Positions 11,205 to 63,189 are shown, numbered from the stretch's first letter. The stretch: DNA of 64,000 bases from Patescibacteria group bacterium (GCA_018818425.1 JAHISB010000002.1:2819-66818), one strand, 5' to 3'. Program-made: numbers and translations. The notes: generated from the letters alone by a model not told the origin.

Positions 11205-11440
11205 TTTTGTCTTTCGACTCGTCGCTTTGCTCCTCGCTCAAGATATTCGACTCCTACTATGAGTGGTCGGAGTTTCTGAAGCGCAGCGAAGAAACGAAGA
11301 CTACCACTCGGCCTTGAGCTAGTGGCCGAAAGGTGAGCGGAGCCGAGCGATAGCGAGGCGGAGTCGAATAGTGGTACTGGCTCAAAGAACAGGGCGATAG
11401 CAGTATTTGGCAGCTGGCCAAAGAGATTTGGCCGGGCTAA
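11205..11440. repeat. imperfect ~170 nt palindrome followed by a diverged direct copy of the last ~73 nt of the upstream GH gene
   Basis: 11128-11200 (gene 3' end) and 11367-11440 are ~80% identical and in direct orientation. Between them, arms gctcaag.../...cttgagc and gagtggt/accactc pair. Both arms contain the CTCGGCT-N-CGCTC motif family. Confidence 0.6.
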
Positions 11441-31116: not shown

Positions 31117-31433
31117 GATTTTCACCCTTACCTTTCTGATATTTTTTTCTTTTATTTTTTTTGACTTTGTTATTAATCCTAGTAAAAAATGGAGAGTCAA
31201 TTTAGAGTTTTTGGTCTTCGGTCATCAATCATCAATTTTCACTAATAGCACAAACTAACAATAGACGAACACAAATATTCACAAACTTAACACAAACTAA
31301 CGTAGTAAATACAGCATTAACTACCCAGTTTTTACCAGGATTGTTTGTCAAAGTCCGTAAATTGACCCCTTACTGTAGCAAATTTTGGCGATTTTGTCAA
31401 CCCAAAAATAAAAAATGGCTGAAGTTAGCCAAA

Positions 31434-31735
31434 TATCACCGATCTATCACAGATGAATCACCGATCTATCACGGATAAATCACTGATAAATCACCGATCT
31501 ATCACGGATAAATCACTGATAAATCACAGATCTATCACGGATAAATCACCGATAAATCACCGATCTATCACCGATAAATCACGGATGAATCACTGATTGA
31601 TAATATAAAGTATCGGTGATTCATCCGTGGATATCCGTGATAGATCCGTGTATCTCCGTGATTTATCGGTGAGCCATCTGTGCGCTATCTGTCGATAGAC
31701 CCCGAGCTTATCGAGGAGTGAACTATCGGTGATTT
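31434..31735. repeat. ~300 bp imperfect palindrome built from ~25 tandem 10-bp units (ATCAC[C/G/T/A]GAT[C/A]TA)
   Basis: ~16 direct units (31434-31598), AT-rich centre (tgataatataaagta), then ~9 reverse-complement units (31610-31700). Extends into the last codons of dusB. Same TCACNGAT words at 17490-17570 and 21082-21125. Confidence 0.8.
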
Positions 31736-32699: not shown

Positions 32700-32810
32700 G
32701 TTGGGTGATTAGGTTAATTAGGTGATTAGGTGATTAGGTCTTAGGTCTTTAGTCTTCAATCTTTAGTCCTCAGTCATCAATCCTCAATCCTTAGTCTTCA
32801 GTCTTTAAAA
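32700..32810. repeat. degenerate tandem word repeats (ggtgattag; tcaatcc / tcttcag)
   Basis: The tcaatcc word also recurs at 34620-34680, 38200-38260 and 44810-44870. Confidence 0.5.
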
Positions 32811-32830
32811 TATACCTTTTCAAAGCGGTC

Positions 32831-35244: not shown

Positions 35245-35528
35245 TAGTCTAAAAGTTTTCTTTGAATTTTTTGTGTAGAGTATGAACAATGGGATAATCG
35301 TTGTATTAACAATACCGGTTAGAGAAATTCCAAATCCAAAATCACAAATAACAAATAAATTCCAAATTCCAAAAATAAAATATCACTGATCATCACTAAG
35401 ATATGCTGACCATTTGCTGATACACGCTCGCCTTGAGCGAAGTCGAGAGGCGAAGCAGGCTGATAATCCGCGGATATCAGCGTACCTCGGCGCATCTCGG
35501 CGGTTATTGGTGAATAATTCTCAATCCT

Positions 35529-35591
35529 CCCAGCCAGCCTTCGGCCGTGAGCTCAGGCCGAACGGAGGCTGGTCGGCCTCTGGCCGAAATC
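35529..35591. repeat. full-length GC-rich tandem-hairpin element (copy B)
   Basis: cccagccagccttcggccgtgagctcaggccgaacggaggctggtcggcctctggccgaaatc. 35529-35574 is the exact reverse complement of 54130-54175. Confidence 0.85.
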
Positions 35592-38169: not shown

Positions 38170-38262
38170 AAACCAATCCATAAAATCAATTTTCAATTTT
38201 CAGTGATTTTTCAATTTCTAATCCTCAATCATAAATCCTCAATCCTTAATCCTTAATTAGTT
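38170..38262. repeat. intergenic word repeats (caattttca; tcaatcc / taatcct)
   Basis: tcaattttcaattttcagtgatttttcaatttctaatcctcaatcataaatcctcaatccttaatcctta. Confidence 0.45.
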
Positions 38263-38787
38263 ATGCTCTATATATCAACTATCCTGGTTTTTATAATTTT
38301 TATTATTTTATTGAACTTCGCCTATGCCGGCGTTTCCGCGGCGCCATGGGTGCCCTCCCGGAAAAAAGATTATCAAAGAGTTTTAGAACTGGCCGGGATT
38401 AAAAATGGAGACACTGTCTACGACCTGGGCAGCGGCGACGGGCGCTGGCTTTTTTATTTTGCTAAGCATTCCCCGGCCCAAGAGATCAGGGGCTATGAAA
38501 TTTCTTTAATCATGTATTTAATTTGCTGGATAAAAAAGTTGTTCAGCGGATATCCACAGGTAAAATTATCCTTTGGCAATTTTTATAAATTTAATTTAAG
38601 TAAAGCTGATGTGCTGATTTGTTTTTTAACTCCCCGGGCCATGAAAAAATTATTGCCTAAATTAAAAAAAGAAATGAAGCCCGGCTCCAGATTAGTTTCC
38701 TACGCTTTCACCATGCCTAATGTGGAAGCTGAAAAAGTAAGCAAGGTTAGCCAAAAAAGCGTGTCTATTTATCTTTATAGATTTTAG
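38263..38787 (+). CDS. small class I SAM-dependent methyltransferase with N-terminal TM
   Basis: 174 aa. Motif I VYDLGSGDGRWLFYFAKH. Confidence 0.5.
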   Translation: MLYISTILVFIIFIILLNFAYAGVSAAPWVPSRKKDYQRVLELAGIKNGDTVYDLGSGDGRWLFYFAKHSPAQEIRGYEISLIMYLICWIKKLFSGYPQVKLSFGNFYKFNLSKADVLICFLTPRAMKKLLPKLKKEMKPGSRLVSYAFTMPNVEAEKVSKVSQKSVSIYLYRF

Positions 38788-39521: not shown

Positions 39522-39608
39522 CCGATAATAAAAATTTTGCCTTTTATCATTCCGAGCTTACCTGAGGAATCTTGTTACTTTAACGATAATCATGTTGTGT
39601 CAAGATCC

Positions 39609-39657
39609 CTCCGCGTTGGCCGTTCGGCCGCGAGCTCACGGCCGAGTGGTCGGGATG
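39609..39657. repeat. diverged copy of the GC-rich tandem-hairpin element (copy D orientation)
   Basis: ccgcgttggccgttcggccgcgagctcacggccgagtggtcggg shares ttcggccg(c/t)gagctca(c/g)ggccga with copies B and D. Confidence 0.6.
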
Positions 39658-39708
39658 ACATTTTAAGCGAAATTTTTTATTTGCCAATTTATCAATCAAT
39701 CGTTATAA

Positions 39709-39836
39709 TATACCCAATTGCTTTAATAAAATAGAAAATACTCCAAAGCGATGCGTTAATATTAATACTAATATTAGATAAAATAATTCAAATTATTCAA
39801 TTAGCAAAATCGGAATTATTAAAGCGAAGGAGTATA
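39709..39836. repeat. ~130 bp AT-rich dispersed element, copy 1 (directly upstream of dnaX)
   Basis: Near-identical to 62841-63006. Ends AAAGCGAAGGAGTATA (SD-like AAGGAG) 9 nt before the dnaX ATG. Internal inverted 7-mers atactcc / ggagtat. Confidence 0.85.
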
Positions 39837-42939: not shown

Positions 42940-43070
42940 GGTAGCCAAAGGGCTATTTTTTTAGTATAATGTTAGATATGGGAACATGTGAACATGGGAA
43001 CATTAGAACACTTGCTCCCATGCTCCCATGTTCTAATGCTTTAATGCTTTAATGCTTTAATGCTTTAATT
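42940..43070. repeat. intergenic word palindrome (gaacatggga / tcccatgttc) plus tandem aatgcttta x4
   Basis: Word family shared with 63030-63135. Confidence 0.55.
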
Positions 43071-44051
43071 ATGAAACACAATATCATCACCATCGGCGGC
43101 TCAACAGAAGACATCATGTTTTATACCAAAGAAGCCGTGTTGGTCAGAAACAACAAGGATATTCTTAGGCAGCAGTTGCTGGGTTTTGAATTTGGCGCCA
43201 AGATCGTCGGCGAGAAAGTTTTTTTTACTTATGGCGGCGGCGGTTCTAATACGGCTGTCAACTTTTCTAAACTGGGCTTAAAAACCGGCGTTATCACAGC
43301 AATCGGCGATGACGACAACGGCCAGAGAATCATCAAAAATTTCAAAAATAATAAGGTTAGCGCTGCTAATATTCAGACAATCAAAAAAGTCCCCAGCGGG
43401 CTTTCTTTTATTGTCAATTTTTCCGGCACCACCGAGCATGTTATTTTCACTTATCGTTCGGCCAATAATCAGTTGCTAATTTCAGAAAAGAGTTTAAGCA
43501 AAGCCAAAGCAGACTGGTTTTACCTTGCTTCGCTGTCAGGGCCAAAGTGGCCGGCTAATCTGAAAAATATTTTTGAGCATTCCGCCAAAAAGAAAATCAA
43601 GATTGGCTGGAACCCCGGCGCTAGCCAGTTAGCCAAGGGCTATTCATCATTAAAAAAATATCTTCAACAAACAGAAGTTTTAATTTTAAATAAGGACGAA
43701 GCCATTGAACTGGTTTTAAGCTCCGGCTATAAAACGCAAAACATCAATCAACTGTTAAAATATTTAAAACTGATGGGCCCGGCAGTTGTTGCCATAACCC
43801 AAGGCGCTAAAGGAGCTGCGGTTTGCTCCGGCAATCAAATCTGTTCGGAAAAAGCTTTACCAATCCAAGGTATTAATACCACGGGCGCCGGCGATGCCTT
43901 TGGTTCCAGCTTGGTTGCCGGTTTGATTATTTATAAAGATTTAGCCAAAGCTCTAAAACTGGCCATCCATCAGAGTAATTATGTTATCCGAGAAATTGGA
44001 GCGCAGAAAGGGCTGCTTTCGATTGCTCAATTAAAAAAGAATGTTGAATAA
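43071..44051 (+). CDS. PfkB-family carbohydrate kinase
   Basis: 326 aa. C-terminal NTTGAGDAFGSSLVAGL motif. Confidence 0.7.
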   Translation: MKHNIITIGGSTEDIMFYTKEAVLVRNNKDILRQQLLGFEFGAKIVGEKVFFTYGGGGSNTAVNFSKLGLKTGVITAIGDDDNGQRIIKNFKNNKVSAANIQTIKKVPSGLSFIVNFSGTTEHVIFTYRSANNQLLISEKSLSKAKADWFYLASLSGPKWPANLKNIFEHSAKKKIKIGWNPGASQLAKGYSSLKKYLQQTEVLILNKDEAIELVLSSGYKTQNINQLLKYLKLMGPAVVAITQGAKGAAVCSGNQICSEKALPIQGINTTGAGDAFGSSLVAGLIIYKDLAKALKLAIHQSNYVIREIGAQKGLLSIAQLKKNVE

Positions 44052-44689: not shown

Positions 44690-44878
44690 AACAACCAACC
44701 CCTCGATAAACTCGGGGCCTATCGGCAAGAAACAAACAAATTCCAATCCCCGATTATCCCCGATTCAATCGGGGAGGGGACAAATTACAAATAACAAATA
44801 AATCCCAAAATACAAATCCTCAATCCTCAATCCTTAAGCTTCAATCCTCAATCCTTTAAGCTTTGAGTTTTAAGATTT
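44690..44878. repeat. intergenic region of G/C-clamped mini-hairpins and tcaatcc word repeats
   Basis: cccctcgataaactcgggg and ccccgattcaatcgggg hairpins, then caaataa and tcaatcctcaatcc words. Confidence 0.5.
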
Positions 44879-49066: not shown

Positions 49067-49206
49067 ACACTGTCATTGCGAGGAGCCGTGAACCAGAGCG
49101 CAAGCGATTGGTTCAGGGCGACGAAGCAATCCCCTTACTGAACGGACGTCCATTGGCAAGGGGATTGCTTCGTCCCTCCTAACGTCGGGACTCGCAATGA
49201 CAGTGG
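49067..49206. repeat. GC-rich compound hairpin element of the TGTCATTGCGAG family
   Basis: Outer stem cactgtcattgcgagg / cctcgcaatgacagtg. 17-bp perfect inner stem gacgaagcaatcccctt (49120-49136) / aaggggattgcttcgtc (49158-49174). Extra hairpin gaacc...ggttc. Confidence 0.8.
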
Positions 49207-51525: not shown

Positions 51526-51580
51526 TCTTTGTCATTTCGGGCGGAATGAAATGGAGCCCAAGAAATCTCTTAAAATGCCT
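51526..51580. repeat. TTTGTCATTTCG(G/A)GCGGAATGAAATGGAG element copy
   Basis: Near-identical over ~50 nt to 58627-58678. Confidence 0.7.
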
Positions 51581-51779
51581 GGAAGGGCGTTTTTTCTTGC
51601 TTTAGTTATAATGATTGGTTACAATACAATACATAATAAAAAGTACCAATTAATCGCAAACGACCCAAACATTCGCGAACCAATCACGAACGATTTTATC
51701 AACAATACACGATACCCCTCGACTCGCTACGCTCGATCGGGGCCTGTCGGCACGATATACGATACATGATATACGATTT

Positions 51780-53504
51780 ATGAACAAATACCAATGGAAA
51801 ATTAAAAAGCCGATTGCCGAAGAAATCAGGCAGAAATTTCCTGAAGTAAATCCCATTATTCTTCAGCTGTTAATCGATAGAGGCCTTACCACTCAAGAGC
51901 AGATCGACGAGTTTTTGCATCCGGATTATTCGCAGGATATTCATGATCCTTTTTTATTTTCTCAAATGAAGCAAGCAGTAGACCGCATTTATCAATCAAA
52001 AGAAAATCAGGGAAAGGCGGTAATTTACGGCGACTATGATGCTGACGGAGTTTGCGGGTCGGCTATCTTGGCCAAAGTTTTTAAAGAGATCGGTCTTGAT
52101 TTTGAAGTTTATTTACCCGACAGAGGGCTGGAGGGCTATGGTTTAAATGAGGAGGCCATTAAGGAGCTGGCCAGCCAGAACGTCAAATTGATTATTACCG
52201 TTGACTGCGGCATCAGCAATGTCAAAGAAGTCAGCTTAGCCAACGAGCTGGGCCTAGAGGTGATAATCACCGACCATCACCACGTGGCCGAAGAATTGCC
52301 AAAAGCGCTGGCCATTATTCATCCGGGCTGGGATAAAAACTATCCTTTTAAAAAATTGGCCGGCGGGGGAGTGGCCTTTAAATTAGCCCAAGCCATTTTA
52401 CAAGATCCAAGATTGAATATCAAAGAAACAAATGTTAGTACTTTAGAGAAATGGCTTTTAGATTTGGTGGCCATTAGCACGGTGGCCGATATGGTGCCGC
52501 TGGTTGGCGAGAACCGGACCTTAGTTAAACACGGGCTTATTGTTCTTTCTAAAACCAAAAATCTTGGCCTGCAGAAATTAATAGAGATCACTGGCATCAA
52601 AAAAACAGACACTTATACTATTGGCTGGCAGATTGCGCCCAGAATCAATGCGGCCGGCCGCATGGATCATGCCAACAGCGCTTATCAATTATTAACGACC
52701 GAAAATATAGAAGAGGCCATAACTATTGCCCATGGCTTAAATAAAAGCAATCAGGAGCGCCAGTCGCTTACCGAAAGTTTAATTGAGCAGGCCAAAGAAC
52801 AGGTCGGCGAAGCCAAAGATGATTTACCAATAATTTTTGCCCAGGGCAAGGGCTGGCCGCCCGGGGTAATTGGCTTGGTTTCTTCTAAATTAACTAATAT
52901 TTATGCCAGGCCTTCAATTGTCCTGTCGGAAAAAGATGATCATTTGGTGGCTTCGGGCAGAAGCATTGGTGAATTTAATTTAATCGAAGCTCTGGACCGG
53001 TTTAAAGATTATTTTGAAAAGTATGGCGGCCACAGCGGCGCCGCCGGGTTTTCTATTAAAATTGAAAGATACGAGGATTTTAAGGCTAAGTTTACTGATT
53101 ATGCCAAAGAAAAATTAACAGGCGTTAAATTTATTCCCAAGCTGATTATTGATTTAGAAATATCATTAAAAGAAATCGACTGGCCGTTGATTGAATCATT
53201 GAACCAGTTTGAACCGTTTGGACAAAGCAATTACTGCCCCCGTTTTTTAATCAGAAATGTAAAAGTTATGTCCCGTGACAGCGTGGGCCATGATAATAAG
53301 CATTTGCGTCTGATAGTTGGCCAGGAGAATCTTCAGCGCAAGGTTATCTGCTTTAGCTTTGGCGATTACTGCCAAAAAATTGAACCGGAAGATATAATCG
53401 ATATTGTCTGCGAAGCCAGCGTTAACGAGTGGAACGGGACTAGGGAGATACAGCTTTCGTTGGTAGATTTGAAAATATCTAATGAACGCCAAGGCCTTGC
53501 CTAA
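51780..53504 (+). CDS. recJ: single-stranded-DNA-specific exonuclease RecJ
   Basis: 574 aa. DHH motifs (YGDYDADGVCG, ITDHHH), DHHA1 domain (GGHSGAAG), C-terminal OB fold. Confidence 0.85.
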   Translation: MNKYQWKIKKPIAEEIRQKFPEVNPIILQLLIDRGLTTQEQIDEFLHPDYSQDIHDPFLFSQMKQAVDRIYQSKENQGKAVIYGDYDADGVCGSAILAKVFKEIGLDFEVYLPDRGLEGYGLNEEAIKELASQNVKLIITVDCGISNVKEVSLANELGLEVIITDHHHVAEELPKALAIIHPGWDKNYPFKKLAGGGVAFKLAQAILQDPRLNIKETNVSTLEKWLLDLVAISTVADMVPLVGENRTLVKHGLIVLSKTKNLGLQKLIEITGIKKTDTYTIGWQIAPRINAAGRMDHANSAYQLLTTENIEEAITIAHGLNKSNQERQSLTESLIEQAKEQVGEAKDDLPIIFAQGKGWPPGVIGLVSSKLTNIYARPSIVLSEKDDHLVASGRSIGEFNLIEALDRFKDYFEKYGGHSGAAGFSIKIERYEDFKAKFTDYAKEKLTGVKFIPKLIIDLEISLKEIDWPLIESLNQFEPFGQSNYCPRFLIRNVKVMSRDSVGHDNKHLRLIVGQENLQRKVICFSFGDYCQKIEPEDIIDIVCEASVNEWNGTREIQLSLVDLKISNERQGLA

Positions 53505-53634
53505 TATGTCATTGCGAGGAGTGTGATCCCTCACTCCGTTCAGGACAGGCTCCACAATCCCATTGAGTTACGAACTTTCGTTCAACAAGGAGATTGCTTC
53601 GCTCGTGCCTCGCTCGCAATGACAGCAAGGCCAA
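53490..53634. repeat. TGTCATTGCGAG-family compound hairpin overlapping the recJ stop
   Basis: aaggccttgcctaatatgtcattgcgagg pairs with cctcgctcgcaatgacagcaaggcc. Interior related to the 49067 and 58605 copies. Confidence 0.7.
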
Positions 53635-54077: not shown

Positions 54078-54176
54078 ACCGAAGACTTCGGCCATGAGCC
54101 ATAGGCCATCATCCTTTGGCTGAAAGGCCGACCAGCCTCCGTTCGGCCTGAGCTCACGGCCGAAGGCTGGCTGGGA
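54078..54176. repeat. GC-rich tandem-hairpin element, copy D (inverted relative to copy B)
   Basis: 54130-54175 is the exact reverse complement of 35529-35574. The flanks share the ggctggtcggcct core. Confidence 0.85.
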
Positions 54177-54241
54177 AAACTGAAGACTAATAAGATTCAT
54201 AATTGACGAAAAGCTTTGTAAACTGTTATAATAAATTCACT

Positions 54242-56241: not shown

Positions 56242-56251
56242 GTTGCTAGGC

Positions 56252-56390
56252 TGAATAAGTTTGATAAGTCATATAAGTTTAATGAGTTTAATAAGTTGAG
56301 TAAGTTCGATAAACTACGGAAGTAAACTTATTCAACTTATTCAACATATTCAACTTATTCAACGTATTCAACTTATTCAACATTTTAAAT
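56252..56390. repeat. intergenic palindrome of ~14 nine-bp units (gaataagtt ... aacttattc)
   Basis: Seven forward units, centre acggaagta, seven reverse-complement units. Confidence 0.75.
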
Positions 56391-58604: not shown

Positions 58605-58626
58605 AAATCCATTGAGAGTTCATTAC

Positions 58627-58678
58627 TCTTTGTCATTTCGAGCGGAATGAAATGGAGTCGAGAAATCCCTTAAGAAAG
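58627..58678. repeat. TTTGTCATTTCGAGCGGAATGAAATGGAG element upstream of the GIY-YIG gene
   Basis: Matches 51526-51580. Preceded by atccattgagagttcattac, related to 53557-53576. Confidence 0.7.
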
Positions 58679-58686
58679 GCGATTAT

Positions 58687-58989
58687 ATGGTAAAAAGAGA
58701 ATATAACTTTTATGTTTATATCATGGCCAGCGCATCAGGCACATTATATGTGGGCATGACTAATGATTTAGAACGTCGGGTAGATGAGCATAAACGAGGA
58801 TTAATTGAATGCTTTACTAAAAAGTATTCATGTCATAAATTAGTCTATTATGAACATTTTACGGATGTTTATGAAGCTATTGAAAGAGAAAAACAGATAA
58901 AAAGATGGCGCAGAGAAAAAAAACAGAACCTTATCAGAACTATTAACCCTATCTGGAAAGATTTAGGTTTAGAATCAGAATGGGAATAA
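58687..58989 (+). CDS. GIY-YIG nuclease family protein (small, standalone)
   Basis: 100 aa. YNFYVYIMASASGTLYVGMTNDLERRVDEHKRG... (GIY...YVG motif, Arg, Glu). Confidence 0.75.
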   Translation: MVKREYNFYVYIMASASGTLYVGMTNDLERRVDEHKRGLIECFTKKYSCHKLVYYEHFTDVYEAIEREKQIKRWRREKKQNLIRTINPIWKDLGLESEWE

Positions 58990-59023
58990 TCATTTTTCTT
59001 TTTATTTCATTATCCTTTGTCAT

Positions 59024-59136
59024 TTCGACTGGAGCGGAGCGGAACGGAGAAATCCCTTGATTAGAAGAAGTAAGGGATCTCTCCGCTCACCTTCATTCAC
59101 TTCGCTCATTACGGTTCGGTCGAGATGACAAAGAGG
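59024..59136. repeat. TGTCATTTCGAC-family nested hairpin downstream of the GIY-YIG gene
   Basis: cctttgtcatttcgac / gtcgagatgacaaagagg outer stem. ggagaaatccctt / aagggatctctcc inner stem. Confidence 0.7.
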
Positions 59137-59302
59137 GTCAAAATAACAGCGATTATCAAAACACAATGAAATTAATAAAAAACAGCCACTAAAAGATGGC
59201 TGTCTCACTCTATATCGCTATAGAGCGCTGAAATTTTTCAATTAAATTATAAGCAAATGGTTTTTAACTTGTAACTAATTTATCAACATATCCAATTCCA
59301 TT

Positions 59303-59578
59303 ATGAATAAGGATGTAAAATGTAGTCAATGTAGAAATTTAAAGGATGTTAATAATCCCAGATTTAATAATGTACAGGAAATATCTATACAACGTCAAAT
59401 AAAAAAATTTCGTTGTGAAGCTGATATACCAAATTATTTTTCATGTGTAGAAGTTAAAAAGATACGAAATTGTGATAAATTTAGACCAAGGACTTTATCA
59501 TTTTGGCAGGAATTATTAAATAAATTATTAATTCTTCCAAAATGGATAGCAAATTACTTTTTAAATAAAATAAAATAA
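59303..59578 (+). CDS. hypothetical small Cys-containing protein
   Basis: 91 aa, AT-rich, weak. Confidence 0.3.
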   Translation: MNKDVKCSQCRNLKDVNNPRFNNVQEISIQRQIKKFRCEADIPNYFSCVEVKKIRNCDKFRPRTLSFWQELLNKLLILPKWIANYFLNKIK

Positions 59579-59582
59579 CAAT

Positions 59583-62840: not shown

Positions 62841-63006
62841 TATACCCAATTACTTTAATAAAATAGAAAATACTCCGACCTGTCCCGCGAAGTTTTAACG
62901 TAGCGGGAAGCGATGCGTTAATATTGATACTAATATTAGATAAAATAATTCAATAATTCAAATTATTCAATTAGCAAAATCGGAATTATTAAAGCGAAGG
63001 AGTATA
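62841..63006. repeat. ~130 bp AT-rich dispersed element, copy 2 (between mreC and mreD)
   Basis: Matches 39709-39836, with a 34-nt hairpin insertion (cccgcgaagttttaacgtagcggg) and an 8-nt duplication. Followed by the gaacatgggagca word palindrome (63030-63135). Confidence 0.85.
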
Positions 63007-63189
63007 TAACTCCGAAGCGGCGGAGCTTAGTATGAGAACATGGGAGCATGAGAACATGGGAGCACTAGAACATGGGAGCATTAGAACATTGGAGCACTTG
63101 CTCTTATGCTCCCATGTTCCAATGTTCTCATGCTAAACTTCGGGGCATTATACGGAATTATTTAAGCAATTGAGTATAAATTAAAATGA

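What the first reader, a model, noticed from the sequence alone, without database searches (positions are those of the whole stretch)
49067..49206. Second structured repeat family: 110-140 nt compound palindromes beginning TGTCATT(G/T)CGAG, five copies in 10 kb
There are copies at 49067-49206, 53490-53634, 51526-51580, 58627-58678 and 59024-59136. Each has an outer stem TGTCATT(G/T)CGAG...CTCG(C/A)AATGACA. An inner stem is built on GGAGAAATCCCTT/AAGGGATTTCTCC-like sequence. The inner stem is 17 bp perfect in the 49 kb copy, with a self-complementary GGACGTCC in the loop. The 53 kb copy incorporates the last four codons of recJ into its stem. The 58.6 kb and 59.0 kb copies bracket the GIY-YIG gene. 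The two short copies (51.5 kb and 58.6 kb) are ~95% identical over 50 nt. The elements are GC-rich and strongly structured. They resemble MITEs or a structured ncRNA family that may double as transcription terminators.
Basis: seen in the sequence. Interest (0 to 1): 0.6.

Follow-up and report, generated by a model that had tools for sequence, protein, structure and literature searches.

The report
Hairpin repeats tied to Ssn nuclease
The repeats are real: they are short DNA hairpin modules, single or in inverted pairs, of the kind that accompany a small single-strand-DNA-cutting GIY-YIG nuclease (the Ssn family, described in 2025) whose gene lies between two of them, so this is a divergent new example in a candidate-phyla bacterium and not a new kind of element.

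Summary
The repeat family exists at the stated coordinates, and there is a sixth copy at 39545-39660. The unit is not the 110-140 nt palindrome. It is a 27-61 nt "arm": TGTC tag, AT-YY-C, tandem G.A mismatch, a variable hairpin tip, then G-RR-AT and a C. Long copies are inverted pairs of arms; short copies are single arms.

The GIY-YIG gene at 58687-58989 has an arm upstream and an arm pair downstream. Its homologues in many phyla have the same layout, with arm density about 50-100 times higher beside the gene.

Both parts are published. The repeats match CGTC/TGTC-tagged REPs (Di Nocera 2013; includes Neisseria dRS3). The protein is 47% identical to gonococcal SsnA, an ssDNA-specific nuclease that binds such hairpins and cuts just 5' of the tag (Chenal 2025).

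New here: a Patescibacteria host, arms that the published SRM pattern misses, and evidence of mobility. Syntenic relatives lack every copy. Units from different phyla are alike exactly from TGTCAT to ATGACA. There is no target-site duplication. The ncRNA and terminator readings are not supported.

The parts
39545..39571 (+).
   Evidence: Covariance-model hit at 39542-39576, 22.5 bits, E 0.004. Sequence read; coordinates.
39604..39660 (-). Arm F_R (TGTCAT-CC-CGAC ... GGAG-GG-ATC read on the minus strand). Its tip carries a copy of the other palindromic repeat of the window (CGGCCG..GAGCTC..CGGCCG).
   Evidence: End motif found; sequence. Outer and inner blocks are complementary (CC/GG, C-G).
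49071..49131 (+). Arm A_L, G-type (TGTCAT-TG-CGAG ... CGAA-G-CA-ATC), with a GAACCA/TGGTTC hairpin tip
   Evidence: The DNA fold closes the arm with the basal ATTGC/GCAAT stem.
49163..49202 (-). Arm A_R, G-type, with a TCCC/GGGA tip.
51530..51567 (+). Arm C: single arm, T-type. The tandem G.A is replaced by a GGGC/GCCC stem with an AA bulge.
   Evidence: Covariance-model hit at 51527-51572, 26.4 bits, E 5e-4. Fold.
53507..53559 (+). Arm B_L, G-type, with a decayed inner block (ACAATC instead of GCAATC). It starts 2 nt after the recJ stop codon.
53592..53624 (-). Arm B_R, G-type (TGTCATTGCGAG-CGAGGCACGAG-CGAAGCAATC on the minus strand)
   Evidence: Covariance-model hit at 53587-53627, 18.7 bits.
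58631..58667 (+). Arm D: single left arm, T-type, ending 19 nt upstream of the ssn-like start codon
   Evidence: Best covariance-model hit in the window, 36.3 bits, E 2e-6.
58687..58989 (+). ssn-like gene: a 100-aa single-domain GIY-YIG nuclease
   Evidence: Pfam PF01541 only, E 2e-17. It is 47% identical to the N. gonorrhoeae SsnA orthologue (BLASTP E 1e-24; tblastn E 3e-15). Y11, Y21, R31, H35, E68 and N87 are invariant in 27 homologues. The model has pLDDT 86; the best structural matches are 1zg2 and 1ywl, then Slx1.
59018..59054 (+). Arm E_L, T-type (TT/AA)
   Evidence: Covariance-model hit at 59015-59059, 32.5 bits.
59076..59130 (-). Arm E_R (CT/AG type). Its stem type differs from that of E_L, yet it is internally complementary.

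Best explanation
The repeats are the hairpin recognition modules ('arms') of an Ssn-family nuclease system. In published terms they are CGTC/TGTC-tagged REP-like hairpins, also called Ssn-related motifs.

Anatomy of an arm: an unpaired TGTC tag; a 5-bp basal stem (AT-YY-C with G-RR-AT); a tandem G.A/A.G internal loop; one or more further pairs; a tip that ranges from a GNA triloop to a roughly 50-nt hairpin; and an unpaired C after the stem.

The 110-140 nt 'compound palindromes' are head-to-head pairs of two arms. The roughly 40-nt copies are single arms. The ssn-like gene at 58687-58989 has arm D upstream and the pair E downstream, which is the usual arm-gene-arm layout of this family.

By homology with Neisseria SsnA, the 100-aa nuclease should bind a folded arm only when the DNA is single-stranded, and only on the strand that reads 5'-TGTCAT...ATC-3'. 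It should cut a few nucleotides 5' of the tag, which is at the outer edge of the arm. In a pair, each strand therefore carries exactly one cuttable arm.

The copies in this window are lineage-specific insertions, so the family is or recently was spreading. I infer that nicking of ssDNA at arm edges by Ssn drives the spread, as proposed for RAYT with REPINs, but how a new copy is made is not known.

Shown here: the anatomy, the covariation, the link to the gene, the absence from relatives, the unit boundaries and the lack of a target duplication.
Taken from the literature: ssDNA-specific binding and cleavage.
Inferred: that this particular protein does the same, and that this causes the mobility.
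For: Anatomy and pairing.
- Of 259 unique arms, 235 have complementary YY/RR (shuffle mean 95, maximum 116), in 5 pair types. In 237 the N-N' position is a Watson-Crick pair (shuffle mean 97).
- On 26 compact arms, 97.8% of cells are paired, with 27 double-sided changes against 8.8 in shuffles (0 of 500 shuffles reach it). Slid controls give at most 59% paired.
- Tips of the form C-GNA-G occur in 37 of 76 short arms.
- In 20 of 43 gene-bearing units and 17 of 39 gene-less pairs, the left and right arms differ in stem type. In 18/20 and 15/17 of these, each arm is still internally complementary.

Link to the gene.
- Arm density is 6.3 per kb within 100 nt of the gene, against 0.01-0.13 per kb beyond 1 kb, in 80 loci from many phyla.
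- Compact units are arm, 0-12 nt, ORF, then a stop codon overlapping the second arm. L004 has a perfect 32-nt inverted repeat and measures 355 bp in all.
- G-type ends like those of copies A and B also bracket ssn genes: 47 of 132 G-type end pairs spaced 325-355 nt apart in metagenomes contain one.

Identity with published systems.
- The protein is 47% identical to gonococcal SsnA, with the published catalytic residues Y6, Y17 and E64 aligned to Y11, Y21 and E68.
- The positions invariant in my arm alignment (GTC before the stem, C after it) are the ones whose mutation abolishes cleavage and binding, respectively, in SsnA (PMC11893778).
- The TGTC tag, the stem that begins A-T then T-A, and the head-to-head dimers match CGTC-tagged REPs (PMC3733652).

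Mobility.
- Syntenic relatives L081-L085 keep the gene order but have no arm and no ssn gene at any orthologous site.
- Units in Acidobacteriota and Verrucomicrobiota MAGs are 85% identical over 583 nt. The similarity starts at TGTCAT and stops at ATGACA.
- There is no target-site duplication.
- The ORFs are under purifying selection, dN/dS 0.03-0.16.
Against: - The published degenerate SRM search pattern finds no hit in the window and hits in only 6 of the 80 related loci, although it finds 9 in the Neisseria control locus. The arms are therefore outside the motif as published.
- No biochemistry exists for this protein or for arms with the G.A internal loop.
- Published SsnA reads the stem sequence as well as its shape. 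Here the two arms of one unit often have different stems, which a single specificity does not obviously explain.
- The copies A and B are G-type, while the only ssn gene in the window has T-type arms, so their cognate nuclease may lie elsewhere or be absent.
- The relatives used for the empty-site comparison are only 67-77% identical in RecJ, so no precise insertion junction could be read.
- MAG taxonomy (binning) underlies the cross-phylum claim.
Confidence: 0.85

Rival explanations
1. Domesticated host function rather than a selfish element. As shown for Neisseria, the arms would mark DNA so that the Ssn nuclease trims incoming single-stranded DNA during natural transformation, controlling what recombines near the flanked genes.
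For: An ssnA knockout raises transformation 5-fold, and only for NTS-bearing DNA (PMC11893778). The ORFs are under strong purifying selection. The arms lie in intergenic DNA next to housekeeping genes and do not disrupt them. From general knowledge, DNA-uptake machinery is common in Patescibacteria.
Against: All copies are absent from syntenic relatives. Discrete arm-gene-arm units are shared between phyla with sharp boundaries. Tandem arrays, nests of arms and multiple gene copies look like proliferation. Arms are also common in phage-like contigs that carry no ssn gene. The two readings are not exclusive; the authors themselves propose a domesticated IS-like ancestor.
Confidence: 0.3
2. The ssn gene is a homing-type invader of a pre-existing palindromic repeat. 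Gene-less arm pairs would be its empty target sites. The nuclease cuts between or next to the arms, and repair copies the gene in, using the arms as homology.
For: The gene always sits exactly between two arms, where a pair has its short spacer. GIY-YIG enzymes hydrolyse DNA and have no known strand-transfer chemistry (general knowledge). The window has left arm, gene, then a complete pair, with a 53-nt direct repeat of the left arm on either side of the gene (family D7).
Against: Arms and gene are transferred together as one unit with sharp ends. Single arms and pairs are far more widespread than the gene, including in phage-like contigs without the gene, so something must move the arms themselves. 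Published cleavage is on ssDNA 5' of the tag, outside the arm, not in the spacer.
Confidence: 0.15
3. A structured non-coding RNA family, or hairpins acting as transcription terminators or mRNA stabilisers.
For: The folds are very stable (z down to -10.9). Most copies lie just downstream of ORFs: A starts 7 nt and B 2 nt after a stop codon. Di Nocera 2013 suggested that many REPs are transcribed.
Against: There is no Rfam hit and no T tract or terminator call at any copy. Both strands fold equally. Arms occur in both orientations. Mismatches on the tagged strand are A.C at least as often as G.T. GNA triloops and tandem sheared G.A pairs are typical of stable DNA hairpins (general knowledge). 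SsnA does not bind the RNA version.
Confidence: 0.05
4. Ordinary MITEs: internally deleted copies of a DDE-type insertion sequence, mobilised in trans by its transposase.
For: The copies have terminal inverted repeats, are small and lie in intergenic DNA.
Against: There is no target-site duplication (k >= 3 at chance level). The only gene found between such ends is the 100-aa GIY-YIG nuclease. The conserved pairing within each end points to hairpin recognition, not a double-stranded repeat.
Confidence: 0.03

Closest known systems
Ssn nucleases with NTS / Ssn-related motifs (SRM) (Chenal et al. 2025, Nat Commun 16:2388, PMC11893778)
   Same: Both have a single-domain GIY-YIG protein of about 94-100 aa (47% identity to gonococcal SsnA). 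Both have hairpin repeats with a GTC tag 5' of the stem and a C 3' of it. In both, the repeats flank the gene on both sides and are dispersed in intergenic DNA. The same positions are conserved here as are functionally critical there.
   Different: The host is a Patescibacteria MAG, a group not mentioned in the paper. The stem is interrupted by a tandem G.A internal loop, and the tips reach about 50 nt, so the published SRM pattern finds none of the arms. No activity data exist for this variant. Evidence for unit-wise horizontal transfer and lineage-specific insertion is added here.
CGTC-tagged REPs, including Neisseria dRS3 and Rickettsia RPE-4/RPE-6 (Di Nocera et al. 2013, PMC3733652)
   Same: Both have an unpaired CGTC or TGTC tag, a stem starting with A-T then T-A, a short unpaired tail, a predominance of head-to-head dimers, and a location downstream of ORFs.
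   Different: The four described families have uninterrupted 8-9 bp stems and 4-5 nt loops and occur mostly in Alphaproteobacteria. Here the stem is 5 bp, then G.A/A.G, then further pairs, with variable tips. That paper concluded that CGTC REPs lack a dedicated enzyme.
REPIN/RAYT systems (Bertels and Rainey 2011, PMC3116915)
   Same: Hairpin repeats occur as inverted doublets and singlets. A low-copy nuclease gene is flanked by the repeats in inverted orientation. An ssDNA hairpin is the presumed substrate, and there is no target duplication.
   Different: The enzyme there is an HUH tyrosine transposase that can join DNA. Here it is a GIY-YIG hydrolase with no known joining activity. The tag is GTAG there and TGTC here.
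IS200/IS605 insertion sequences
   Same: Both have hairpin-forming ends that are recognised as single strands, and neither makes a target duplication. The Ssn authors draw the same comparison.
   Different: Both IS200/IS605 ends are read on one strand and are not inverted repeats of each other. The enzyme family is also different.
Slx1 and the UPF0213 proteins (PDB 1zg2, 1ywl)
   Same: These are the closest solved folds: 1zg2 at E 2e-4, and Slx1-Slx4 entries at probability 1.0 with rmsd 2.6-3.3 over about 74 columns. The profile gives E 2e-10 to 1zg2. Slx1 is a structure-specific nuclease.
   Different: Slx1 has a RING domain and a partner (Slx4) and acts on branched duplex DNA. The UPF0213 proteins are only about 30% identical and have no known function.

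Membership tests
Ssn nuclease family (cd10448, Chenal 2025) | Single-domain GIY-YIG protein of about 94-100 aa with no extra DNA-binding domain | tested here: met
   The protein is 100 aa. Pfam finds only PF01541 (plus the overlapping T5orf172). The model is one compact alpha/beta domain with pLDDT 86.
Ssn nuclease family (cd10448, Chenal 2025) | Homology to Neisseria SsnA at the paper's criterion (tblastn E < 1e-10) | tested here: met
   tblastn against N. gonorrhoeae gives E 3e-15 in a 7.3-Gb collection. Pairwise BLASTP gives 47% identity over 85 aa, E 1e-24. This is closer than to UPF0213 1zg2 (30% identity).
Ssn nuclease family (cd10448, Chenal 2025) | Catalytic residues required for cleavage (Y6, Y17, E64 of N. 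meningitidis SsnA) | tested here: met
   They align to Y11, Y21 and E68, all invariant in 27 homologues.
Ssn nuclease family (cd10448, Chenal 2025) | Assignment to CDD cd10448, that is, placement in the Ssn clade of the GIY-YIG tree | not testable with these tools
   No CDD library or reference tree is available here.
Ssn nuclease family (cd10448, Chenal 2025) | Binds and cuts its hairpin only as ssDNA, on one strand, a few nt 5' of the motif | not testable with these tools
   This needs purified protein and oligonucleotides.
Ssn-related motif (SRM) / NTS repeats | Hairpin-forming palindrome of 20-50 nt | tested here: met
   Pairing within the arm is supported by covariation. Eight of the 10 window arms fold with the basal stem under DNA parameters. 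Some arms exceed 50 nt because of tip insertions.
Ssn-related motif (SRM) / NTS repeats | Orientation-giving conserved bases: GTC just 5' of the stem and C just 3' of it | tested here: met
   T4 G5 T6 C7 and C29 are invariant in alignment A3. They are present in 9 of the 10 window arms; F_L has TATC.
Ssn-related motif (SRM) / NTS repeats | Match to the published search pattern HGTCWYN(0-2)YYVSBRHN(0-5)WNVSBRGN(0-2)RNCYNB | tested here: not met
   There are 0 hits in the window (random expectation 0.1), 8 hits in 6 of 80 related loci, and 9 hits in the Neisseria control locus. The tandem G.A loop and the long tips break the pattern. It is a search heuristic built from 29 genomes, so I file the arms as a variant outside it.
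Ssn-related motif (SRM) / NTS repeats | Repeats flank the ssn gene on both sides | tested here: met
   Arm D ends 19 nt upstream of the ORF, and the pair E starts 29 nt downstream. Among homologues, 43 of 87 genes have strict arms on both sides; the paper reports 42%.
CGTC-tagged REPs (Di Nocera 2013) | Unpaired CGTC (or TGTC/CCTC) tag at one end, and a stem starting with complementary A-T, T-A | tested here: met
   The TGTC tag is present. Pairs A8-T28 and T9-A27 are invariant.
CGTC-tagged REPs (Di Nocera 2013) | Uninterrupted 8-9 bp stem and 4-5 nt loop (families CGTC-1 to CGTC-4) | tested here: not met
   The stem is 5 bp, then a tandem G.A, then 1-2 or more further pairs. The segments between the blocks range from 3 to more than 50 nt. 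The arms therefore belong to none of the four described families; at most they form a further family of the superfamily.
CGTC-tagged REPs (Di Nocera 2013) | Mostly organised as head-to-head dimers | tested here: met
   Four of the six loci in the window are head-to-head pairs (F, A, B, E). There are 39 gene-less pairs in the related loci.
REPIN/RAYT | Associated HUH-Y1 (RAYT) transposase gene and a GTAG tag | tested here: not met
   The enclosed gene is a GIY-YIG nuclease, and the tag is TGTC. The resemblance is in layout only.
MITE of a DDE transposon | Target-site duplication flanking the terminal inverted repeats | tested here: not met
   Direct repeats at the flanks are at chance level.

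The most novel reading that the evidence does not exclude
Arm-ssn-arm units are autonomous, horizontally moving selfish elements, a hairpin-ended and duplication-free class whose only gene is an ssDNA-specific GIY-YIG nuclease. The gene-less arm pairs and single arms, including Neisseria dRS3/NTS and the CGTC REPs that 'lack a transposase', would be their REPIN-like non-autonomous progeny. The variant with a G.A internal loop and GNA tip seen here would be a major, so far uncatalogued branch, spread through Patescibacteria, Chloroflexota, Acidobacteriota, Bacteroidota and phage genomes.
Probability: 0.45. Interest if true: 0.65.

Novelty: new member of a known kind. Interest (0 to 1): 0.35.

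Why it matters
The finding itself is explained by published work, so it should not be counted as a discovery. Three things could still interest people who work on Ssn or REPs.

1. The published SRM search pattern misses this whole branch of arms. Published counts of Ssn-associated repeats are therefore probably too low outside Proteobacteria.
2. The covariation, the sharp unit boundaries shared between phyla, the lack of a target duplication and the absence from syntenic relatives are comparative evidence for the authors' untested idea that arm-ssn-arm is, or was, an IS-like mobile unit. They would also give the 'transposase-less' CGTC REPs a candidate enzyme across many phyla.
3. Ssn enzymes are being developed as site-specific ssDNA cutters. 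Arms with G.A loops and freely extendable tips are candidate new enzyme-site pairs. Cultured hosts that carry arm-flanked genes (Planktothrix agardhii, Sinorhizobium meliloti, Spirosoma oryzicola) make tests possible.

Tried and rejected
- Rfam, at gathering and at E-value thresholds: nothing at the copies.
- Terminator scan: no copy qualifies.
- PADLOC and NCBIfam on the nuclease and on the neighbouring 91-aa ORF: nothing useful.
- Target-site duplication, tested adjacent to the ends and at offsets: at chance level.
- Empty-site search by joining the flanks of 1255 candidate end pairs and searching all fetched loci: only self-hits inside arm arrays, so uninformative.
- Orientation of arms relative to coding strands: mixed. 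The only bias was 55:20 for single G-type arms in phage-like contigs, based on crude ORF calls, so it is not decisive.
- Wobble-pair asymmetry as a test of RNA against DNA: the numbers are small and show no G.T excess.
- Curated phage records: only 3 weak, unannotated matches to a G-type arm.
- Nine literature searches on GIY-YIG with MITE, inverted repeat, hairpin or RAYT found nothing. Up to that point I had treated the arm-gene-arm unit as undescribed. The tenth search, prompted by recognising dRS3 beside the gonococcal homologue, found the Ssn paper and overturned that view.
- I first called the protein 'UPF0213'. That family only supplies the nearest solved structures; the protein is closer to SsnA.
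- The paper's supplementary tables are not held, so I could not check whether Patescibacteria were in its data.

Full report

Yes, with corrections. The end motif TGTCATTKCGAG (one mismatch allowed) occurs 7 times in the window against 0.37 expected. A relaxed form gives 9 ends against 2.2 expected. Reading the sequence gives:
- three full palindromic copies: A 49071-49202, B 53507-53624, E 59018-59130;
- two copies that have only the left half: C 51530-51567 and D 58631-58667.

- the 17-bp perfect stem and the GGACGTCC in A;
- the extra stem that B makes with the last codons of recJ;
- the position of D and E on either side of the GIY-YIG ORF;
- the high GC content (0.50-0.57 against 0.40 for the window);
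- the strong folding (z down to -10.9), which is equal on both strands.

C and D are 82% identical, not about 95%. A sixth, partly decayed full copy lies at 39545-39660. Rfam has nothing at these sites.

**2. What is the repeated unit?**

I fetched 80 loci that encode relatives of the GIY-YIG protein. They come from Patescibacteria, Chloroflexota, Acidobacteriota, Bacteroidota, Ignavibacteriota, Verrucomicrobiota, Planctomycetota, Omnitrophota, Proteobacteria, Firmicutes and Spirochaetota, mostly from MAGs. In most of them the gene is bracketed by GTCATYNCGA upstream and its reverse complement downstream.

In compact cases the layout is left arm, 0-12 nt, ORF, then a stop codon overlapping the right arm. 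L004 has a perfect 32-nt inverted repeat and the whole unit is 355 bp. Arm density is 6.3 per kb within 100 nt of the gene and falls to 0.01-0.13 per kb beyond 1 kb.

The arm has fixed outer and inner blocks: TGTCAT-YY-CGA-N ... N'-GAG-RR-ATC.
- In 259 unique arms, YY and RR are complementary in 235 (shuffle mean 95, maximum 116), in five pair types. N and N' form a Watson-Crick pair in 237.
- On 26 compact arms, a structure with a 5-bp basal stem, an unpaired tandem G.A/A.G, two further pairs and a triloop has 97.8% of cells paired. It shows 27 double-sided changes against 8.8 in shuffles (0 of 500), and slid controls are far lower.
- Half of the short tips are C-GNA-G.
- The two arms of one element often differ in stem type: 20 of 43 gene-bearing units and 17 of 39 gene-less pairs. 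Each arm nevertheless stays self-complementary, in 18/20 and 15/17 of these.

The conserved structure is therefore one hairpin per arm. Copy E shows this inside the window: E_L is TT/AA and E_R is CT/AG.

**3. The G-type copies A and B.**

Their arms read TGTCAT-TG-CGAG ... C-GAA-G-CA-ATC. They follow the same plan, with a 2x3 internal loop.

G-type arms are abundant in IMG/VR contigs, mostly as single arms and with no ssn gene in those loci. Of 132 such end pairs, 47 enclose an ORF of the same nuclease family, with the same arm-ORF-arm packing. A and B are therefore gene-less pairs of a sister lineage. The only ssn gene in the window has T-type arms.

**4. Evidence that the copies were inserted.**

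Contigs from related Komeilibacteria-like genomes (RecJ 67-71% identical; the RecJ search also listed a 77% relative whose contig I did not fetch) keep the gene order AckA-APRT-MTAP-TSP3-RecJ-RNaseH-HolB-BNR-RRF-M50-hyp-aaRS-MreB. They have:
- no end motif and no covariance-model hit below E = 1 at any orthologous spacer;
- no nuclease gene between hyp and aaRS, where the spacer is 57 nt or less against about 980 nt in the window.

Units from an Acidobacteriota MAG and a Verrucomicrobiota MAG are 85% identical over 583 nt, and the similarity begins at TGTCAT and ends at ATGACA. A second pair of units behaves the same way.

There is no target-site duplication. The base outside each end is Y on the left and R on the right. 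About 10% of isolated elements sit inside a longer flanking palindrome (>= 8 bp in 9.8% against 1.5% of controls). Copy B is one of them.

The ORFs are under purifying selection, dN/dS 0.03-0.16.

**5. Comparison with what is known.**

Nine literature searches found nothing. Then, beside the gonococcal homologue, I recognised the Neisseria dRS3 repeat. A search on dRS3 with GIY-YIG found Chenal et al. 2025 (PMC11893778). The paper reports the following:
- SsnA is a 94-aa single-domain GIY-YIG protein (CDD cd10448).
- It binds the hairpin repeat NTS (CGTCATTCCCGCGMAVGCGGGAATCYRG) only as ssDNA and only on one strand, not as RNA or dsDNA.
- The C after the palindrome is critical for binding. The three bases before the palindrome are critical for cleavage.
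- The loop can be removed or extended.
- 71% of homologues have such motifs (SRM) nearby, and 42% have them on both sides.
- The NTS-ssnA-NTS layout is noted as IS-like and compared with IS200/IS605 and REP/BIME.
- In Neisseria the system restricts incoming ssDNA during transformation.

The window protein is 47% identical to the gonococcal orthologue, with the catalytic residues aligned. The invariant bases of my arm alignment are the functionally critical ones of the NTS.

Earlier, Di Nocera et al. 2013 (PMC3733652) had defined CGTC-tagged REPs. Their features are a tag that is often TGTC, stems starting A-T then T-A, mostly head-to-head dimers, and dRS3 and Rickettsia RPE-4/RPE-6 among the members. 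They concluded that these repeats lack a dedicated transposase.

**6. What differs here.**

- The published SRM search pattern finds none of the window's arms and hits in only 6 of the 80 related loci, while it finds 9 in the Neisseria control. The tandem G.A loop and the long tips break it.
- The four CGTC families have uninterrupted 8-9 bp stems and 4-5 nt loops, which these arms do not have.
- The paper does not mention Patescibacteria.

I therefore file the protein as a member of the Ssn family. I file the repeats as a divergent, uncatalogued branch of the same repeat superfamily. The family is large: 24,923 clusters at 50% identity with E <= 1e-3 and 9,073 with E <= 1e-10. The nearest solved folds are the UPF0213 proteins, then Slx1 (Dunin-Horkawicz 2006).

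**7. How it most likely works.**

Each arm folds when the DNA is single-stranded. The nuclease binds the strand that reads TGTCAT...ATC and nicks just 5' of the tag, which is at the outer boundary of the unit. In a pair, or in an arm-gene-arm unit, each strand carries one cuttable arm.

That this protein does so is inferred from homology. That the nick leads to copying is inference by analogy with RAYT and REPINs. A GIY-YIG hydrolase has no known joining step, so host repair or replication must complete any move.

One point remains unexplained. The stems of the two arms of one unit often differ, yet SsnA is reported to read stem sequence.

The rivals are domestication for transformation control, homing into pre-existing palindromes, ncRNA or terminator, and DDE-type MITE. 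They are weighed in the rival-explanations section. The first is compatible with the main reading.

**8. Verdict.**

The MITE-like reading is close, and the RNA and terminator readings are not supported. The system is already published, and this is a new, divergent member. Interest is modest. Its value lies in extending the motif definition and in comparative evidence for mobility.

Noticed in passing
window 59303-59578 (+): A 91-aa cysteine-rich ORF with no Pfam, NCBIfam or PADLOC match. It lies in the same roughly 980-bp stretch (58605-59582) that is absent from the syntenic relatives L081 and L083, just downstream of the ssn unit and of a bidirectional terminator-like hairpin at 59179-59206.
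   Followed up: partly
window 11303-11333, 35521-35579, 39620-39650, 54125-54183: A second palindromic repeat family (CGGCCG..GAGCTC..CGGCCG core; two copies are 95% complementary over 59 nt). One copy sits as the hairpin tip inside arm F_R, so the two families can be nested.
   Followed up: partly
window 31402-31621; 42970-43072 and 63040-63150; 56247-56389; 32744-32812, 38199-38281, 44794-44876: Many intergenic regions hold tandem arrays of short oligomers (periods of 11, 8, 9 and 14 nt), often as inverted blocks. The syntenic relatives carry different arrays at the same spacers (for example CGCGAAC-based palindromes in L081).
   Followed up: no
window 39782-39836 and 62952-63006: A 55-nt direct repeat, 100% identical, 23 kb apart, each just upstream of an ORF. 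It may be a shared promoter or leader.
   Followed up: no
window 51723-51735 (-): An isolated CGAGCGTAGCGAG mini-hairpin (the arm-tip motif with tandem G.A and a GNA loop), without the TGTCAT and ATC blocks, in the TSP3-recJ spacer about 150 nt from arm C.
   Followed up: no
L086-L205 (IMG/VR contigs): G-type arms are common in phage-like contigs. They occur mostly as single arms 10-30 nt upstream of structural-gene ORFs, with no ssn gene in those loci. Single arms are oriented 55:20 against the coding strand.
   Followed up: partly
L001-L080, for example L008, L017, L037; window copy E: The left and right arms of one unit often have different stem types (TT/AA, CC/GG, TC/GA, CT/AG), although published SsnA loses activity when the stem sequence is changed. 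Either these enzymes are more tolerant or only one arm is a substrate.
   Followed up: partly
L313 2192-2284, 2459-2550, 5813-5958: In one metagenome contig, three arm pairs are each enclosed by the same additional 15-16 bp outer palindrome (GAGGCTGTGTCATAA / TTATGACACAGCCTC). This suggests a composite, layered repeat.
   Followed up: no
L326 (Planktothrix agardhii plasmid p1, NZ_LR882964.1 18847-19131): A cultured cyanobacterium carries an ssn homologue (64% identity) surrounded by arrays of arms with a T-A pair in place of the otherwise invariant C-G (TGTCATTCTGAG..CGAAGAATC). The gene lies between an MmeI-type restriction-modification gene and DISARM drmA.
   Followed up: partly
L329 (Sinorhizobium meliloti, CP090106.1): Two tandem ssn genes, each flanked by arms with an uninterrupted 9-bp stem (GTCATCCTCGGG CTTGA CCCGAGGATC). 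L014, L019, L022, L030, L049 and L077 also hold two or three ssn copies within a few kb.
   Followed up: partly
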